Source: Octopus sinensis (lineage: Eukaryota). Taken from it: a stretch of DNA of 64,000 bases. The notes under the pieces were generated by a model that saw only the letters and a list, made by a program, of their open reading frames with translations, ran no database searches and had not been told where the DNA came from. Position 1 is the stretch's first letter, and every line of letters begins with the position of its first letter. The translations under genes and the position numbers were made by a program. The stretch covers positions 68,262,001-68,326,000 of the forward strand of contig NC_042997.1 in NCBI RefSeq assembly GCF_006345805.1, written 5' to 3'. Shown here one piece after another: positions 4,896 to 42,373 of the stretch.

Positions 4896-7475
4896 AGGGG
4901 CACGAATTGCTCTAGCCAAGTAAACTGTGTGAGGCCTTTCAACAGCATTTTGCCCGACTGTTCGAGACGAGTGGCGGGCAAGAACGTAGGGTGGACTTCA
5001 GTGCCTATCTACACAGCCGACCACGACTCTCGACAAGAGAGGCAGGGCGCTGGGAAGATGCCATCACGGCGGTGGAAGTGCAGAACACGATGGCAGAATG
5101 CTCGAGGGACAAATCGCCGGGTTTGGATGGTCTACTCTACGAGCTTTACAGTTGTATGCCAGACTTGTTTGGAGACGTCTTGATAGCGGTGTACTGCAAC
5201 TGGCAGCAAAACGGGAGCATTCCTGGTTTTGTGAGCCGAGGAGCCGTAACACTGCTGAAGAAAGATCTAAACAAGGGGAATGTAATAGATAACTTTAGGC
5301 CCATCACTCTGCTTAATGCAGACTTGAAAATTTTGGCCAAGGTGTTAGCCAAGAGGTTGGCGCTTGTCCTTGAGAAATTGATCGACAAGGTGCAAACATG
5401 CGCCTGCCGGGCCGGAGCATTCATGACAATCTCCACCTGATGCGCTACATCATAGACAGGGTAGTTAAGGAACCTGGCATGGGTGGGGCGCTGATCAATT
5501 TGGATCAATCGAAAGCTTTCGATAGGGTAAATCATCGATACTTGGAGGCTGTCCTCAGAGCGGCTGGTTTCGGTCCCGTCTTCCGCGGCTGGATAGCCGC
5601 TTTGTACAGAGGTATCCGTTCGGTAATTCGCGTAAATGGACATCTATCGAGACCTTTCGACATTGCATGTTTGGTTCGTCAGGGATGCCCCCTCTCGTCG
5701 CTTCTCTACGTATTGACTCTCGAGCCATTATTGCGGAAGCTGGCAACTCTGAGAGGCATCCCGCGAGAATTAGGATGCGGGACGAGCATGTCTGCATACG
5801 CGGACGATGTCACCGTCATAGTGTCTAGCCGCGAGCACATCGAGCAGGTCGGCGAGACACTGAAAGACTACGAAGCGGTGACAGGAGCGAAAATCAACCG
5901 GGAAAAATCAGTGGGCTTGCGGCACGGCACCTGGAGAAGCAAGCCCATGCCGTAAACCAGCGCCTCCATCGTGGGACGCTGGACCGACGGTCCGGCTGAG
6001 TTGCTCGGGGTCTGGTTTGGTCCGAACCTCCAAATGAAGAAAAACTGGAACGAGATAACGAGTAGGGTGGTCACTCTCTGCAGGCAATGGACCGAGAGGA
6101 AACTGTCCCTAAAAGGTCGGGCGGAGGTGGCGAACTCGTACATCGCGTCCGTCATCTACTACCGCCTGACCGTCGTGCCCTGTCCCGACCCTACTATCAC
6201 CAAACAGAACTCATTCTCTTTCGCTTCTTGTGGAAAGGATGCGTCCCGATGGTCAGGCGATCCATTTGCTGTCAACACCCGTTAAAAGGAGGACTGGGCA
6301 TGCCGTGGTTGATGATGCGCAGACATGCACTGGGACTGCGACATCTCAGGCTCTACGTAGACGACAGTGAACATGTGTGGTCGCCGTTTGTGAGGCACGC
6401 TTTACCGCAACTCATCTCTATGACCGAACTGCAGTCGTGGATCAAAAAGAGGCCGAGAAAGGGCGAATGGCACCGCGAGCGTCGCGTTGCTCTCAAGCAA
6501 CTATGCCGTCCCGGGTCGACCTTGAGTGACTCCATCACAACCCAAGCATTTTATAGGGGATTAGTGGAGGGGAGGTACGACGATGAGCTCGGGGCAAACC
6601 TGGACGTCGACGAGGAATACCTGACCCGCCTGTTCAGGACGACTTTCGGGCCAGGGCCCATGGACAACTTCCAGATCCCTGGCCTGGTAGTGCTACCGAG
6701 AAGCGCTACCCGTTCGGAATAAGCTCTACAGACACGTCTCGAGAAACACGGGGCCGACCTGCCCGAGATGCGGTCAGAGCGATGAAACCGTTCTGTACGC
6801 ACTCGTGGGCTTATGTCGAACGACTGCTGTCACGTGTGGGACGGGTCGGTTTATCAGCCGAGTCTATCGTCAATATTGTCACGTCTCCTTCCTTCAAACG
6901 GGAAGGAAGAGCTATTTTCATCATCCTTGTGGCCATGGCGAAAGAATGTATCTGGTGGACGCGTCTGAAAGGATTGGAGACAAACACTTTCCTCTCTGGT
7001 CAATCTCTCATCAACTTCTTCAAGTATCACTTGAAAAGCAAGGTGAGAGTAGAGAGGCAAGTTTTGTGTAGCGAGTAGCAAGGATGGCACGTATGAATGA
7101 CAAAGCCACCTTGAGCATAATCCTATGAACCCGGAAATTTAAAACAGAGGGTTACCTACTTGCAAACAAATGTGGTAACATGTAACAATATTGATCGAGG
7201 TTACCGTGATATTTTCCGTAGACTTTTCTTCCCACGGATAAACCTTATCTGCTTCCCCCTTTACACCTTACATCATGAGACTGTGAAACACGATCCCTAT
7301 TGATCGTTTTTTTGTTTCTTTTCCTTTTTTTCTTTTTTTTCTTCTTTCCCTTTTACGATCCCTTTTGATCGAAAACCTTCCCCACCTTTTTTTGTTTTCT
7401 TTCCCCAAAAAAGAAAAGCTCTACTTTGTAATCTGTCCCGTCCGTGTGCAGTCCTGTGTGGCTAATAAAGAAACA
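4896..7475 (+). mobile_element. 5'-truncated L1/Tx1-type non-LTR retrotransposon embedded in (TATC)n
   Basis: ORF2 RT fragments, a T-rich 3' UTR, and AATAAA at 7464-7469. The element ends GGCTAATAAAGAAACA and runs directly into (TATC)n; (TATC)n also lies immediately upstream. Confidence 0.9.
4991..7078 (+). pseudogene. Frameshifted ORF2 (reverse transcriptase plus C-terminal zinc knuckle) of the L1/Tx1-type element
   Basis: ORFs 4991-5440, 5398-5955, 5971-6285, 6087-6722 and 6782-7078 carry KSPGLDG, FRPITLLNADLKILAKVLAKRL, LDQSKAFDRV, VRQGCPLS, AYADDV, KINREKS, LSLKGR and GGLG. CPRCGQSDETV is encoded at ~6760-6795. Confidence 0.9.
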
Positions 7476-11748: not shown

Positions 11749-11897
11749 TGTGATCAAGACTATTGCTCAGAACTGTCTGGGTAAAGATTTTGCAGCTTTA
11801 GTAAAAAAGTATATATATATATATACTCTTTTACAAAAAATGCTATGCAAAATGACCGTTATACCCCGTTATACCGTTTTCATAGCATTTTTCCGCT

Positions 11898-11969
11898 GGC
11901 CGGATAACTGAAGAGATGGCGGCGTGGATTTCCACCTCGGCATCCGAAACTCGGAGTTTCATCATAGCT
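11898..11969 (+). ncRNA. Type-I minimal hammerhead ribozyme motif, copy 1
   Basis: CTGAAGA at 11908-11914; stem II GATG..GTGGA-TT-TCCAC..CATC; GAAA at 11946-11949; stem III CTCGGAG; UH = TT. Stem I has mismatches. Confidence 0.65.
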
Positions 11970-12060
11970 ACCGAATACTTGTCTCATATTACATTTACAG
12001 ATACATTCCTCTATTTACATAATATCGATGTCTCTTTCTTTCTTTTGTTGCCTTATCATC

Positions 12061-12104
<44 letters not shown>

Positions 12105-12193
12105 TGATAAGGCAACAAAAGAAAGAAAGAGACATCGATATTATGTAAATAGAGGAATGTATCTGTAAATGTAATATGAGACAATTATTCGGT

Positions 12194-12265
12194 AGCCATG
12201 ATGAAACTCCGAGTTTCGGATGCCGAGGTGGAAATCCACGCCGCCATCTCTTCAGTTATCCGGCC
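12194..12265 (-). ncRNA. Type-I minimal hammerhead ribozyme motif, copy 2
   Basis: Reverse complement of the same motif; stem I has one mismatch. Confidence 0.65.
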
Positions 12266-12332
12266 ATCGGAAAAATGCTATGAAAATGGTATAACGGGGT
12301 ATAACGGTCATTTTGCATAGCATTTTTTCGAT

Positions 12333-12404
12333 GGCCGGATAACTGAAGAGATGGCGGCGTGGATTTCCACCTCGGCATCCGAAACTCGGAGTTTTATCAT
12401 GGCT
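12333..12404 (+). ncRNA. Type-I minimal hammerhead ribozyme motif, copy 3 (best stem I)
   Basis: GGCCGGATAA-CTGAAGA-[stem II]-C-GAAA-CTCGGAG-TT-TTATCATGGCT. GATAA/TTATC pairs perfectly and extends through GGCCG/TGGCT with one bulge. Confidence 0.75.
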
Positions 12405-12449
12405 ACCGAATAATTGTCTCATGTTACATTTATATATATATATATATAT

Positions 12450-12683
12450 GTATGTGTGTATGTGTGTGTAATATTTGTGCGTCGTGTTTGTCCCCCTAGC
12501 ATTGCTTGACAACCGATGCTGGTGTGTTTACGTCCCTGTCACTTAGCGGTTCGGCAAAAGAGACCGATAGAATAAGTACTAGGCTTTCAAAGAATATGTC
12601 CTGGGGTCGATTTGCTCGACTAAAGGCGGTTCTCCGGCATGGCCGCAGTCAAATGACTGAAAGAAGTAAAAGAGTAAAAGAGT
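12450..12683 (+). mobile_element. SINE family 1, 3' half
   Basis: Close match to the family 3' region, ending ACTGAAAGAAGTAAAAGAGTAAAAGAGTA. Confidence 0.85.
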
Positions 12684-12761
12684 ATATATATATATTATAT
12701 GTATATATAATATATATATAATTAAATCTCAGAATGAGATTGAAACAGTAATCGCTCGATA

Positions 12762-13059
12762 ATGTAAAGTATAGAAGCCATCTTATCATGGCTAACCACA
12801 CTGGGGAGGGGGTGTTACTGTAGCTTTATAGCCCCAAGAGATCGTCGTCTCTAGCTGGCTTTAGACACAATATCAGTGCCCTTGGAGTATTTGCAAAGGG
12901 AGGCGAGGAAGTGATGGGCTCCCTTTGCAAATACTCCAAGGGCACTGATATTGTGTCTAAAGCCAGCTAGAGACGACGATCTCTTGGGGCTATAAAGCTA
13001 CAGTAACACCCCCTCCCCAGTGTGGTTAGCCATGATAAGATGGCTTCTATACTTTACAT
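12762..13059. repeat. Perfect 141-bp inverted repeat with 16-nt loop, inserted in (TA)n
   Basis: 12762-12902 is the exact reverse complement of 12919-13059. An unpaired ~40-bp extension lies at 12720-12761. Confidence 0.95.
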
Positions 13060-13104: not shown

Positions 13105-13521
13105 ATATCTTCTGCTTGTTCCAGTCATTATACTGCGGCCATGCTAGGGCACCGCTTTCAATTTTTAGTGGATGGAATCGGCCCTAGTATTTCTTTTATT
13201 AAGACTTGTACTTATTCTATCGGACTCTTTTTGTCGAACCGCTAGATAACAGGGACGTAAACACACCAACACCGGTTGTCAAAGCAGTGATGGGAGGGGA
13301 CGAACACAGACACATAAACACACCCTCATAGATACGCACACACACACACATATATATACGACGGGATTCTTTCAGTTTCCATCTGCCAAATCCACTCACA
13401 AGGCTTTGGTCTGTTCGAGGCTATAGTAGAAGACACTTGCCCAAGGTCGCACGTAATGGAACTGAACCCGAACCATGTGGTTGGGAAGCAAGCTTCTTAC
13501 AACACACCCACTCCTGCACCT
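13105..13521 (-). mobile_element. SINE family 1
   Basis: Full-length homolog of 16163-16560. Confidence 0.85.
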
Positions 13522-38547: not shown

Positions 38548-40719
38548 CATACATACACACGTATATATACATATACATACATGCATACATACATACATAC
38601 ATACATACATACATACATACATACATACATACATACATACCTGTATATATGTTCTCTACTAGAAGTGTGAAATAATTCTTCACTTTGATGTCGAATTGCT
38701 TTTACATATAAACATAAAAAAACAAACATCCTCACTTGTGTGTATGTGGGTGGGTTTGTGTGTGTATTTGTGTGATATGTGAGTTTGTAATTGTGTGTAA
38801 AGAAGGAGAGTGGAGAATGAGTGATTATTGTTGCATAGGATAGATTATCGAACAACCAGCTGTTCATCTTCTGTCAACTATGCCGTTGAAACTGAAACCA
38901 TACAGCCCCAGGAATATTGCCAAGAGGCTTTTTAGTTAGTAATGCCCAGTACATTACTTCCCGTGGGTTCTTGCTCGTAGAAAAGTAATCTGAGCATCAG
39001 CAAGCTTATTTGTAGCAAGCCACACAATCACTCATTTGCACAAGGGAGTCATCACAAGCATTTGCTTTTTGAATATCATGTAAATTGAAATAGGATATAC
39101 AGAATATCATAACAAGTTAAACCTAAAAAAATCCCTATCATTTTGTAAAACAAATGCCTTATCTGTAAAAGACAGTATACTGATGTTTATAAATAGTGCA
39201 GAAAATAAGTGAGATAAAAATAGTTAGGTTTTTAGTTTGAATAGCACATCACTGCTATCTAGCTCCATTTATGAGTGTGCGCGTTTGTTGTATGTGAGTA
39301 TCTGTATGAGTCGTATGCGTGTGAGTGTCTGTGTGTGTGAAGTTGTAAGAAACATCTGTTATGATGTTTTCATAAGTTTATATTTCTATGAATGATGCAT
39401 GCATTAATATTTTTGATCGTAAAATGTTTCGTATGAGGAACACAATAATTACAGCAGTAAACTAATTAGCACTCATTGTTTCATTGGGGGAAAAATATCG
39501 TTATGTCCCAATTTATCACTAGAAAGTATCTCAGCTATATTGCCTTTTATATTTGTTCACTGTTAGATTGTTTCTGTTTATTTCTTTTGTTCTTTCCTTG
39601 AATAATTATTTGGTTATTTTTAACAATGGTCTGTTTTTCTTGACTTCATTTAGCTTCCCAAAACAAATAGATGAATAAATATAACATTTTAAAGTTTGTT
39701 TGGATCCTGAGTACAAGCGGTATAATATTAGAAATTTTGCATAGTTTTATTACATTCATCATATAAAAAAATCGATGGATCAATGAATGAACAATAGTAG
39801 AGAGGAAATAAAGACATTGCAGTAATTTGTTGTTAAAACTGTAACAGAATTAACCTTGTTAGGAAGATTTAAGACAGAACACAACTGTTTGTGGTTGCAT
39901 ATTGCTTTCCCTTCATATTTTACCTTCTCTTTATTTCAATAAAATATGAATGGGTGCAACATCGATTTTCCGGATAACTGATTTTTTTACGAACCAAAGG
40001 TGATCACCTCTAAATTAAATACAAAATTTACTTAAATAATTAAATGAAATACAGGTACATTAATACTTTAGTATAAATGATCCAAGTTTATTGATACTGT
40101 TCTGTACAAGAGACTATGAATCATGGTCGTTCAGTAACCTAGCTTAGAGGCCGCGGGAATTTGAGGTTCTTGCTCGTAAAATACTGTGGATTACAAGAGG
40201 CTCTGGTCCCGAAAGTCGGTGTTTTATCAGCATGAAGACTTAATCGACTATATTTTCATATTTTACGATATAAATTTGCCTAAAGAATTCAGCTATATCG
40301 ATTCGTTAAAGTTCTCAGTCATAATGACACAAATCTATTAACAAAATCTGTGTTTCTTTTTCAGTTTTAACTTGAAATTGTTTTACATTAAGAAATGATA
40401 TAAGTGTTATAATATTCTTATACAGTTGATGTTACAACGTTCCTCAAGTAAAACATGAAGGTTAATTTAGGACATTTCAGTTGAATCACTTTGACTGCAG
40501 TAGATAAGTGTTATTTTCTGACCGGCAGAGTGAGGACGTTGAAGGGGTTTCAATTCCGAACCGAGACCTATATTTCATTAAAAGAGTACTCATGTAAATA
40601 CTATTATGACCTAACCCGCATTTGTTTATCTAACTTAGTAAAAGAATGTTTTGACAAAGCAGTTACATATTGGGCGTATTGTGACCAACGGTGGAAGTCA
40701 ATATCCAATAGTCTCATCG

Positions 40720-42373
40720 ATACAATTTCTTTTGCCGTTTTCGCTAGAGTTGAGAGGCATTCTAGTGATAAGCCGACTTCTTGCCCTGGCTTCTTCTTCT
40801 TCTTCTTCTTCTTCTTCTTCTTCTTCTTCTTCTTCTTCTTCTTCTTCTTCTTCTTCTTCTTCTTCTTCTTCTCTTCTTCTTCTTCTTCTTCTTCTTCTTC
40901 TTCTTCTTCTTCTTCTTCTTCTTCACTTGCTGACTTCGTCCTCTCTGTCAGATCATCATCCGTTAACGGATCTAAGTGGGTCTCAATCAAATTATTAACG
41001 TTCTCGGTAGTCACATCAGTGAAATTATATCCTCTTAACAATTTTGCCAGTTTCACTGTCTTATCTACTACAGAGTGATAGATTTCGTCAGGAGAAAATC
41101 CTTTATAGACGTGGACCGCTTCTGGCCACAATTTCTTCCAGCTGGCATTCAAAGTTTCGTTCTTCATTTCCTTTAAGGCCTTCTGAATATTTTAGAGACA
41201 TGAGGAAATGGTGTACCCACACCAGTACTCCTTCAGCGAGGAGTAATCATCCGAGTTCATAGCTTCGACTAGGTGTTGCAGGGAGTTTCGCGTATAGAGC
41301 GCCCTAAAAGCACGAATAACGCCTTGATCCAAAGGCTGGATCAGTGACGTGGTGTTAGGCGGTAAGAATTCGATTTGTACACCCTCATAAAGAGATCGAG
41401 CGCGTGACTTCAAGCATTAGCCATTAGTTCTGTTTCAGAGAGATAAACCTTGACTTCGGAGATGAAGCACTGGTGAAATCAACCCGATATCAGTGGTTTC
41501 GTTATCCATGCCTTTTGATTGTGCATCCAATGCACTGGCAGCAGGTTCTTATTTTTGTTTTTGAGGGCCCTTGGGATTTTTAACTTAAATATAAGATCTG
41601 GCCTTATCATAAAGCACTCAGCATTTCCACACAGTATAATTGTGACGCGATCTTTGTACGCCTTAAATCTAGGTGCTCTGACTTCCTCCTTCATAATAAA
41701 TGCCCACGACAGCATCCGTTTCCAAAAGAGGCCGGTCTCCTCCATATTGTAAACTTGTTCACGCGAATATCCCCCTGCCTCGACGATGGTCTTGAACGTC
41801 TCGTTCACGTATTCTTCAGCAGCGGTTTTTTTTCAGCAGAAGCAGCTTCTCCATGCAGGGACACATTCTCAAGGTTGAACTTCCTTTGAAATTTATCAAA
41901 CCAGCCCTTGCTAGCATTAAATTCGGTTAATTTGGTGGGAGATGCCGTAGATGCTCCTAGTTCAGGGTCGTCTGGGTCGTCGTCACTGTCATCCGTAAAT
42001 TTGCCGTATAGCTGCCTGACCTTTTCATGGATGTTGTTGGTATCTAGTGCAATGCTCTTCCTACAGTCACTGATCCAAAGGGCTAATGCAGACTCCATCC
42101 CTACGATGGCCTTATTGCAGGAAGTTACCACTCTTTTCGTTGTCTTGTTAAAAATCATTTTTGCCGTCGCCCTTATGATTTTCCCGTCCTTCTTGATGTA
42201 GCGAATGGTAGATTCATTGATGATGTAATGGCGGCCTATATCCGCATACCTTCTCCCTTACTTAAGCTTGTCGAAGAGTCTCACCTTCTCTGCTATAGTA
42301 AGCATATTCCTCTCCTTTGAGGCTTGGGTTCAATGCCAGAGGCCTTAGAAGGTGTAGAACGTTTGGGCGACAT
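40720..42373 (-). pseudogene. Disrupted Tigger/pogo (CENP-B-like) transposase
   Basis: MLTIAEKV...YIINESTIRYIKK (psq HTH), FNASKGWFDKFQRKF (Tc5 HTH), VYNMEETGLFWK, KDRVTIILCGNA, FLPPNTTSLIQPLDQGVIRAF, LNASWKKLWP and an acidic tail. Multiple frameshifts. Confidence 0.9.
40790..40924. repeat. (TTC)n expansion within the transposase acidic tail
   Basis: About 45 units with one frameshifting interruption near 40871. Confidence 0.95.

What the first reader, a model, noticed from the sequence alone, without database searches (positions are those of the whole stretch)
11836..12431. Three hammerhead ribozyme motifs in a non-coding double palindrome with a shared foldback junction
Seen: units A (+, 11836-12060), A' (-, 12104-12328) and A'' (+, 12317-12431) each carry CUGAAGA/GAAA/UU, a hairpin stem II and a very short stem III (ACU-CGG-AGU). 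A'-A'' is a hairpin with a one-sided ~60-nt tail. A begins with the same AAAAAATGCTATG|CAAAATGACC inversion junction as A'/A'' but differs from A' at about 4 positions. Known: Penelope-like elements carry minimal hammerheads in their pLTRs and often insert as inverted repeats with a tail, and such minimal hammerheads are reported to cleave as dimers. Inference: either a fixed, ORF-less foldback unit moves as a family (retrozyme-like) or it was locally duplicated long ago. Two same-strand hammerheads 435 nt apart could excise a unit-length, largely double-stranded RNA.
Basis: partly seen in the sequence, partly recalled or inferred. Interest (0 to 1): 0.75.

Follow-up and report, generated by a model that had tools for sequence, protein, structure and literature searches.

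The report
Penelope retrotransposon ends, locally folded back
These three hammerhead-ribozyme motifs are the cut-off ends of a common Penelope-type jumping gene (over 1,700 such motifs in this genome): two form its usual hairpin-with-tail insertion and the third is likely a one-off local fold-back copy, so the spot is ordinary and is predicted not to release an RNA unit.

Summary
The three hammerhead motifs, both palindromes, the 62-nt tail and the 4 A/A' differences are real. The unit is the 3' end (pLTR) of a Hydra-clade Penelope-like element. Elsewhere in G000 it flanks a broken RT + GIY-YIG ORF with the RWK, DKT and CxCx5C motifs, and 1,741 intact-core copies exist. A'-A'' is the family's standard hairpin-plus-tail insertion into (TA)n: 15 of 40 position-ordered loci are such hairpins, each with one long and one short arm. 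The exact junction occurs only in this window, so no fold-back unit moves as a family. A is likely a local fold-back duplicate; shorter fold-backs occur at 4 other loci. Folding predicts the two plus-strand cuts exclude each other. Caveat: contigs of four public runs hold A's junction but none shows the A'/A'' junction, so the triple may be polymorphic, under-sequenced or mis-assembled. Cleavage and transcription are untested. The scan has noted similar pLTR hammerheads on other DNA of this genome. The closest published relative is Hydra-1_Obim.

The parts
11801..11834 (.). 9-bp inverted repeat (1 mismatch) around (TA)8 at the left end of A: a short fold-back of the flank, or the 9-nt remnant of a SINE-like repeat end
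   Evidence: sequence; the same 9-mer plus TA also ends the repeat at 12674-12695 (joint table)
11835..11876 (+). Head of copy A: reverse complement of the start of A'' plus the 12-nt junction insert
   Evidence: junction unique to this locus; a contig spanning it and running into left-flank-like sequence stands in 4 of 4 runs
11877..12060 (+). Copy A: pLTR 3' end with tail; inverted duplicate of A' with 4 changes, all away from the family-majority letter
   Evidence: exact 48-nt contig with A's letter at 11978 at single-copy depth in run X1
11897..11970 (+). Hammerhead of A (core 11908-11958, predicted cut after 11958); helix I damaged
12061..12103 (.). (TA)n(GA)n spacer: insertion target and centre of the A/A' palindrome
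12104..12287 (-). Copy A': long arm of the PLE insertion, ending at the family's distal 3' end (site 2); 12104-12165 is the 62-nt tail
12193..12266 (-). Hammerhead of A' (core 12255-12205); predicted to be fully paired to an antisense arm in a minus-strand read-through
12288..12299 (.). 5' inversion junction; 12288-12307 is a 10-nt tandem duplication, likely a templated insert
   Evidence: sequence; pattern unique in G000; A'/A''-type version not seen in contigs of 5 runs
12300..12432 (+). Copy A'': short arm, ending 9 nt before the family's proximal 3' end (site 1), followed by (TA)n
12332..12405 (+). Hammerhead of A'' (core 12343-12393, predicted cut after 12393); the only copy with intact helix I
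   Evidence: (z -2.68)
12433..12450 (.). (TA)n right target flank

Best explanation
The three motifs are 5'-truncated ends (pLTRs) of an abundant Hydra-clade Penelope-like retrotransposon: A'-A'' has the family's usual hairpin-plus-tail form in a (TA)n tract, and A is likely a one-off inverted copy of A' and its junction, made by fold-back priming in the self-complementary TA tract. Shown: family membership, link to an RT + GIY-YIG ORF, (TA)n flanks, two preferred 3' ends about 63 nt apart, uniqueness of the junction. Inferred: the endonuclease cut (TA)n; two cDNAs started at the two fixed RNA sites and were joined after 130-190 nt with a 10-nt templated insert; then, at insertion or later, a 3' end in the TA tract folded back, copied A' through the junction and rejoined the left flank. 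The hammerhead likely serves the parent element as a dimer- or protein-assisted type I ribozyme. At this locus the copies are predicted to be passengers, largely silenced by their own antisense arms.
For: Family: 1,918 first-look candidates, 49 matches listed from 40 scored, full-length hits mostly 92-94% identical; 1,741 intact-core matches, control 0. Of 9 long loci, 2 read pLTR-ORF-pLTR in direct order (L063 with a period of about 3.17 kb, L065) and 2 read inverted pLTR-ORF-pLTR (L068, L069). ORF pieces show RWK, DKT, YKDD, CxCx5C, a GIY-YIG-like motif and CxxC, the Hydra signature of PMC8557442. That paper's supplement lists Hydra-1_Obim, whose protein shares long identical stretches by eye and whose hammerhead has the same core start and a GUU site. 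In 40 position-ordered loci, 23 of 50 arms end at q159-173 and 22 of 50 at q234-240; 15 of 40 loci are head-to-head hairpins, and all 15 have exactly one long arm. In the best-hit set 14 of 15 are asymmetric, with spacers of 0-422 nt. A shares one rare letter with A' (q126; 2 of 70 in the family) and one with the head of A'' (q46; 0 of 43), so it was copied from this insertion. Four other loci show 15-47-nt inverted copies of the tail end across a short TA tract. Core positions are less substituted than downstream ones (26/844 vs 114/2223, p=0.015).
Against: No contig of runs X1-X5 carries the A'/A''-type junction, whereas the A-type junction runs unbroken into left-flank-like sequence in 4 of 4 runs. 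All 4 A/A' differences have A' in the family-like state (4:0, p=0.125), as polishing by reads of other copies would also give. Pfam support is weak: RVT_1 E=0.033 and GIY-YIG E=0.006, both below cut-off, on 1 of 7 pieces each, and none on 5 full-length homologues. No clade tree was built. Covariation in the hammerhead is not significant (66/500 and 57/500 shuffles as high). Rfam does not recognise the motif. The timing of A is open: divergence 4/225 vs 4/121, p=0.46. The other fold-backs are 5-15 times shorter than A.
Confidence: 0.78

Rival explanations
1. The element identity stands, but the three-copy array does not exist in most individuals or at all. Either A'-A'' was deleted between the two TA tracts in the sampled animals, or the assembly joined two alleles or a mis-oriented TA-bounded segment, and polishing pulled A' to family-majority letters.
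For: In X2, X3 and X4 all depth at 12287 carries the A-type letter. One contig per run spans the junction and continues into left-flank-like sequence at about single-copy depth (49 vs 46-48 in X1; 69 vs 59 in X2; 13 vs 14 in X4). At 100% likeness no 61-nt or 47-nt piece lies over 12257-12345 in X1, X2, X4 or X5. Junctions of other family hairpins do appear in these contigs (table 5).
Against: Contigs show presence, not absence; X1 and X3 were read only in part (76% and 80%). Long hairpins drop out of amplified short-read libraries (recalled). A'-A'' has both family 3' ends and TA flanks, and A's head can only come from such a junction. The window has no N gap, and G000 holds no other copy of the junction.
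Confidence: 0.15
2. A read-through RNA is cut by A and by A'' and releases a 435-nt, mostly double-stranded unit (retrozyme-like or circular RNA).
For: Two plus-strand cores lie 435 nt apart with intact catalytic letters. In the full transcript A' pairs with A, which leaves A'' free to form helices I and II (P 0.64-1.0). A is transcribed about 230 nt before its antisense appears.
Against: In the full transcript A's helices have P=0; after a cut in A, A'' helices have P=0; A alone cannot form helix I. Helix III needs a second free copy (dimer -69.1 vs 2 x -30.1 kcal/mol). PLE hammerheads cleave poorly without dimer or protein (PMC4209133 passages; PMC11167929). The 435-nt interval is not a repeated unit. 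No RNA run was laid, so transcription is untested.
Confidence: 0.05
3. A fixed ORF-less fold-back unit with this junction is itself a mobile family.
For: The junction occurs twice here, and inversion points of other copies fall in the same region just upstream of the hammerhead.
Against: The junction 22-mer with up to 1 mismatch has 2 matches in the genome, both in the window. Other hairpins each have their own junction and spacer. The unit continues upstream into the 3' UTR of a coding element.
Confidence: 0.02

Closest known systems
Hydra-clade EN+ Penelope-like elements, especially Hydra-1_Obim (Craig et al. 2021, PMC8557442; seen: passages of the main text and search hits in supplementary file 1)
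   Same: RWK, DKT, CxCx5C linker, C-terminal GIY-YIG without CCHH, about 700 aa, (TA)n targets, type I hammerhead near the 3' end with the same core start and a GUU site; inverted 5'-truncated copies and a one-sided tail.
   Different: A distinct family: the helix II and III sequences differ from the Hydra-1_Obim entry (one of the two DNA motifs searched is absent from the supplement). Here pLTRs are evident, whereas the paper notes 'no pLTR' for Hydra-1_Obim. The period is about 3.2 kb vs 2.5 kb, and the tail about 63 nt vs the 30-40 nt quoted for PLEs. Protein identity was judged by eye, not computed.
PAc, Poseidon PLE of Anolis carolinensis (Frangieh et al. 2024, PMC11167929; parts 1-2 of 4 read)
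   Same: Two internal reverse-transcription start sites define the tail; AT-rich target; inserted copies keep the whole uncut hammerhead.
   Different: Different clade. In vitro PAc showed no strand difference in start site, whereas here 15 of 15 hairpins pair one long with one short arm.
PLE hammerheads with small palindromic helix III (Cervera and de la Pena 2014, PMC4209133; passages read)
   Same: Type I fold, short quasi-palindromic helix III that favours a dimer, G10.1-C11.1 possible, located in the pLTR.
   Different: Not a minimal hammerhead: long interrupted helix II, bulged C beside GAAA, two-part helix I.
Animal non-LTR retrozymes (Li, Clavereau and Pollet 2026, bioRxiv 10.64898/2026.07.22.740005; part 1 of 5 read)
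   Same: Non-coding stretch with type I hammerheads derived from a PLE pLTR.
   Different: Retrozymes are tandem direct repeats with a hammerhead in each unit. Here the copies are inverted, unequal and have a unique junction.
Fold-back templated inverted duplications at DNA breaks (Yu et al. 2024, PMC11724301; abstract and outline only)
   Same: Inverted duplication primed by microhomology next to a break, with the other end captured by end joining.
   Different: Mostly 5-34 bp in yeast; A is about 225 bp. The mechanism here is inferred by analogy.

Membership tests
EN+ Penelope-like element | Single ORF with RT and GIY-YIG endonuclease flanked by pLTRs | tested here: met
   L063 and L065 read pLTR-ORF-pLTR; broken ORF pieces cover residues 1-707 of the 714-aa homologue P0026 at 37-48% identity. 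Pfam hits are weak and below cut-off. There is no ORF remnant in the window itself.
EN+ Penelope-like element | 5' truncation, inverted 5' copy and one-sided tail | tested here: met
   15 of 40 position-ordered loci are hairpins, all with one long arm.
Hydra clade | RWK motif and DKT in place of DKG | tested here: met
   RMRWK and SDKTK in L064, L066, L070.
Hydra clade | CxCx5C linker; C-terminal GIY-YIG lacking CCHH; CxxC and CxH near the end | tested here: met
   CSCRNKKLC or CSCRDKNLC, IIYEA..KYVG and CxxC are present in L066, L067 and L069, with no CCHH seen. CxH was seen in the homologues but not checked in frame in the broken genomic copies.
Hydra clade | (TA)n insertion preference and canonical hammerhead | tested here: met
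   Most arm ends run into TA or CA repeats; hammerhead core found.
Hydra clade | Placement in the Hydra clade of an RT tree | not tested
   No reference PLE proteins were held as session sequences; compared with Hydra-1_Obim by eye only.
Type I hammerhead ribozyme | CUGANGA, GAAA and NUH core with three helices, helix I open | tested here: met
   93.8% of cells paired in 65 distinct copies vs 31-48% for slid partners.
Type I hammerhead ribozyme | Covariation supporting the helices | tested here: inconclusive
   66/500 (percent paired) and 57/500 (covariation score) shuffles as high; the family is too uniform.
Type I hammerhead ribozyme | Match to an Rfam hammerhead model | tested here: not met
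   0 matches at E<=10.
Type I hammerhead ribozyme | Self-cleavage | not testable with these tools
   Needs an in vitro assay; only contigs were available for this stretch.
Non-LTR retrozyme | At least two consecutive tandem units, each with a hammerhead | tested here: not met
   A and A'' share 141 nt 435 apart with an antisense copy between them.
Non-LTR retrozyme | Unit dispersed as a family with fixed junction | tested here: not met
   Junction unique to this locus.
Non-LTR retrozyme | Circular RNA produced | not testable with these tools
   No raw RNA reads were on offer.

The most novel reading that the evidence does not exclude
Penelope hairpin insertions obey a strict rule: the two cDNAs of one event start at different fixed RNA sites (15 of 15 hairpins pair a site-2 arm with a shorter arm). 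This points to an asymmetric RT dimer on one uncut RNA. The same TA ends can also snap back and copy the new insertion, here over 225 nt, and this third copy titrates the antisense arm and re-opens an otherwise silenced ribozyme (A'').
Probability: 0.3. Interest if true: 0.45.

Novelty: new member of a known kind. Interest (0 to 1): 0.2.

Why it matters
Little at this locus: it is debris of a known class of retrotransposon. Two by-products have modest value. First, the family gives thousands of natural integration products with two sharp 3' ends about 63 nt apart and always asymmetric hairpins. That extends the two-start-site model of PAc to the Hydra clade and makes the asymmetry testable in vitro. 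Second, tail fold-backs at (TA)n show how PLE insertions can seed long palindromes, which are unstable and hard to assemble. The short-read result is a warning that such arrays need long-read confirmation.

Tried and rejected
Rfam: only microRNA-type hits caused by palindromes and microsatellites, and none on the single unit. PDB sequence search with the RT piece: 1 chance hit, E=0.77. Pfam on 5 homologues: no RT or GIY-YIG hit. A weak Pfam hit to Ntox35 (E=0.041, below cut-off) was taken as chance. Covariation test: not significant; 6 of 71 arms with indels or short matches were left out of that alignment. Test for one vs two RNA templates per hairpin: arms of one locus share 1.0 non-majority letters vs 0.25 for unrelated arms (15 vs 2,467 pairs), driven by a few loci and not decisive. 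Host gene or strand of transcription: the 61 open frames >=110 aa look like microsatellite frames and transposon remnants by eye; not scanned against Pfam. The second read-laying at 100% likeness did not lay A's head contig either, likely because of a different TA length or repeat masking, so lack of cover there is not evidence. Look-up of earlier findings by sequence gave nothing. Paper searches listed no description of this exact family or of a three-arm array. Only file 1 of the PMC8557442 supplement was searched (4 motif and name terms plus taxon words); supplements of the other papers and Repbase or Dfam were not seen and may hold this family.

Full report
Numbering: q counts along A' on the minus strand (q = 12329 minus window position); the hammerhead spans q63-q137.

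Observation. The stretch lies in a microsatellite-rich 2.72-Gb genome; earlier notes call it octopus-like, which I did not test. Two overlapping palindromes are present. A loose type I hammerhead descriptor finds three hits in the window, at + 11908, - 12255 and + 12343, against a mean of 0.35 in 40 shuffles. A and A' differ at 4 positions, and A' extends 62 nt beyond A''. The fold is CUGAAGA, an 11-bp interrupted helix II with a bulged C, GAAA, a 3-bp helix III with a CGG loop, a GUU triplet and a 5+5-bp helix I. Helix III does not fold alone but pairs with a second copy (-9.7 kcal/mol), and an A'' dimer is favoured over two monomers by about 9 kcal/mol. Rfam does not score the motif.

What the unit is. 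It is the 3' end of a large family: 1,918 first-look candidates and 1,741 copies with an intact core pattern, control 0. Upstream, other copies continue for hundreds of bases. Locus L021 held an ORF start between two arms, and following it led to near-complete elements. Of 9 long loci, L063 and L065 read pLTR-ORF-pLTR, L068 and L069 read inverted pLTR-ORF-pLTR, L066 has the ORF and a 3' pLTR, L064 and L067 have a 5' pLTR or part of one and the ORF, and L070 and L071 are truncated. All copies seen are broken by stops or frameshifts. One RT piece has 569 homologues at E<=1e-20 among 2,625 candidates; the best are 46-54% identical and many are about 700 aa long. [quoted passage not shown] Its supplement lists Hydra-1_Obim, with a similar protein by eye and a hammerhead with the same core start and a GUU site but other helices. 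Pfam support is weak and no tree was built, so the clade call rests on motifs.

A'-A'' is the standard product. I took 40 of the first 43 loci on contig C1 in position order, leaving out the window and two divergent copies. Of 50 arms that span the hammerhead, 23 end at q159-173 and 22 at q234-240, mostly into TA or CA repeats. Read from that output, 15 of 40 loci are head-to-head hairpins. All 15 have one arm ending at q235-240 and one ending earlier (13 at q159-172, one at 155, one at 128). In the best-hit set 14 of 15 pairs are asymmetric, with spacers from 0 to 422 nt. A' ends at the distal site, with a slightly shortened tail end, and A'' at q163. This matches the two reverse-transcription start sites that define the PLE tail (PMC11167929) and the inverted-copy-plus-tail layout in PMC8557442. 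Arms contain the whole hammerhead across its cut site, so their templates were likely uncut or re-ligated RNA (inference; PAc uses unprocessed RNA in vitro).

The junction does not travel. Its 22-mer, with 1 mismatch allowed, has two matches in the genome, both in the window.

Copy A. A is the reverse complement of 12104-12328, junction included. It shares a rare letter with A' (q126) and another with the head of A'' (q46), and its 4 own changes all depart from the family-like state kept by A'. So it was copied from this insertion. Among the first 100 intact-core matches listed, this is the only tail-to-tail pair. An exact pattern for tail-to-tail ends across up to 60 nt found 4 loci. In them the second arm is a 15-47-nt inverted copy of the tail end, in L075 100% identical including local variants. 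This supports fold-back priming in the TA tract, like the short fold-back duplications at yeast breaks (PMC11724301, abstract). Whether A arose at insertion or later is open (p=0.46).

Result against this reading. Contigs of four runs from four studies each hold one contig across the junction. It has the A-type letter, runs on into left-flank-like sequence and has about single-copy depth; in X2-X4 no laid contig has the A'/A'' letter. At 100% likeness no piece covers the A'/A'' junction in X1, X2, X4 or X5, while X1 has an exact 48-nt contig with one of A's own letters. So A is confirmed outside the assembly and A'-A'' is not. Contigs cannot prove absence, and long hairpins are known to drop out of short-read libraries (recalled), but junctions of other family hairpins do appear. 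I give 0.15 to polymorphism or mis-assembly.

Function here. In a plus-strand read-through, A pairs with A' (hammerhead helices P=0) and A'' is free (P 0.64-1.0). If A is cut first, A' captures A'' (P=0). On the minus strand A' is always captured, and A alone cannot form helix I. The two cuts needed for a 435-nt unit are thus predicted to exclude each other, and A'' would still lack a dimer partner. These are equilibrium predictions. Across the family the core is somewhat better kept than flanking positions (3.1% vs 5.1-5.5% non-CpG changes, p=0.015 and 0.003; 39 of 71 arms have an intact core), which suggests the ribozyme matters to the parent element; covariation is inconclusive. Cleavage and transcription were not tested.

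Verdict. A new family of a known kind (Hydra-clade PLE with pLTR hammerhead), in a known insertion form, plus a rare local fold-back copy whose presence outside this assembly is only half confirmed. Earlier notes of this scan describe the same kind of thing elsewhere in this genome; they are unchecked and add no independent weight. Interest 0.2.

Noticed in passing
window 12718-13059: A second, younger hairpin-plus-tail insertion in (TA)n: 141-nt arms 100% complementary and a tail of about 44 nt. It belongs to another large family (2,087 first-look candidates, 97-99% identity). Other copies form tandem units of about 360 nt and carry a minimal hammerhead-like motif with U in place of C3 and a palindromic helix III just upstream of where the window copy is cut off (7 of 11 loci matched the core pattern).
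   Followed up: partly
L033-L062 (loci found with the ORF start of the Hydra family): In 16 of 30 loci a 100-300-nt piece of the ORF start is followed directly by a pLTR arm whose 5' end lies at q37-62, that is 1-26 nt upstream of hammerhead helix I, each with a different junction (one, L062, has unrelated bases between). This may mark an RNA 5' end or a template-jump hot spot.
   Followed up: partly
L096 (G000:C1:37388402-37390246): Another three-arm locus: a short inverted arm followed by two direct copies 394 nt apart, each ending in TA repeats.
   Followed up: no
window 12506-12673 and 13108-13282: Two inverted copies of a very abundant SINE-like repeat (78-89% complementary; very high contig depth) enclose the second hairpin.
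   Followed up: no
window 4916-7078 (+): Open frames that read by eye like a broken non-LTR reverse transcriptase; not scanned.
   Followed up: no
window 40604-42257 (-): Open frames that read by eye like a broken Tigger/pogo-type transposase; not scanned.
   Followed up: no
G000:C1 matches at 15454684, 40550883, 140668547, 162907979, 173763904: Divergent members of the same hammerhead family with C or U at position 7, other helix II letters and in two cases a GUC triplet. They would be the better set for a covariation test.
   Followed up: no
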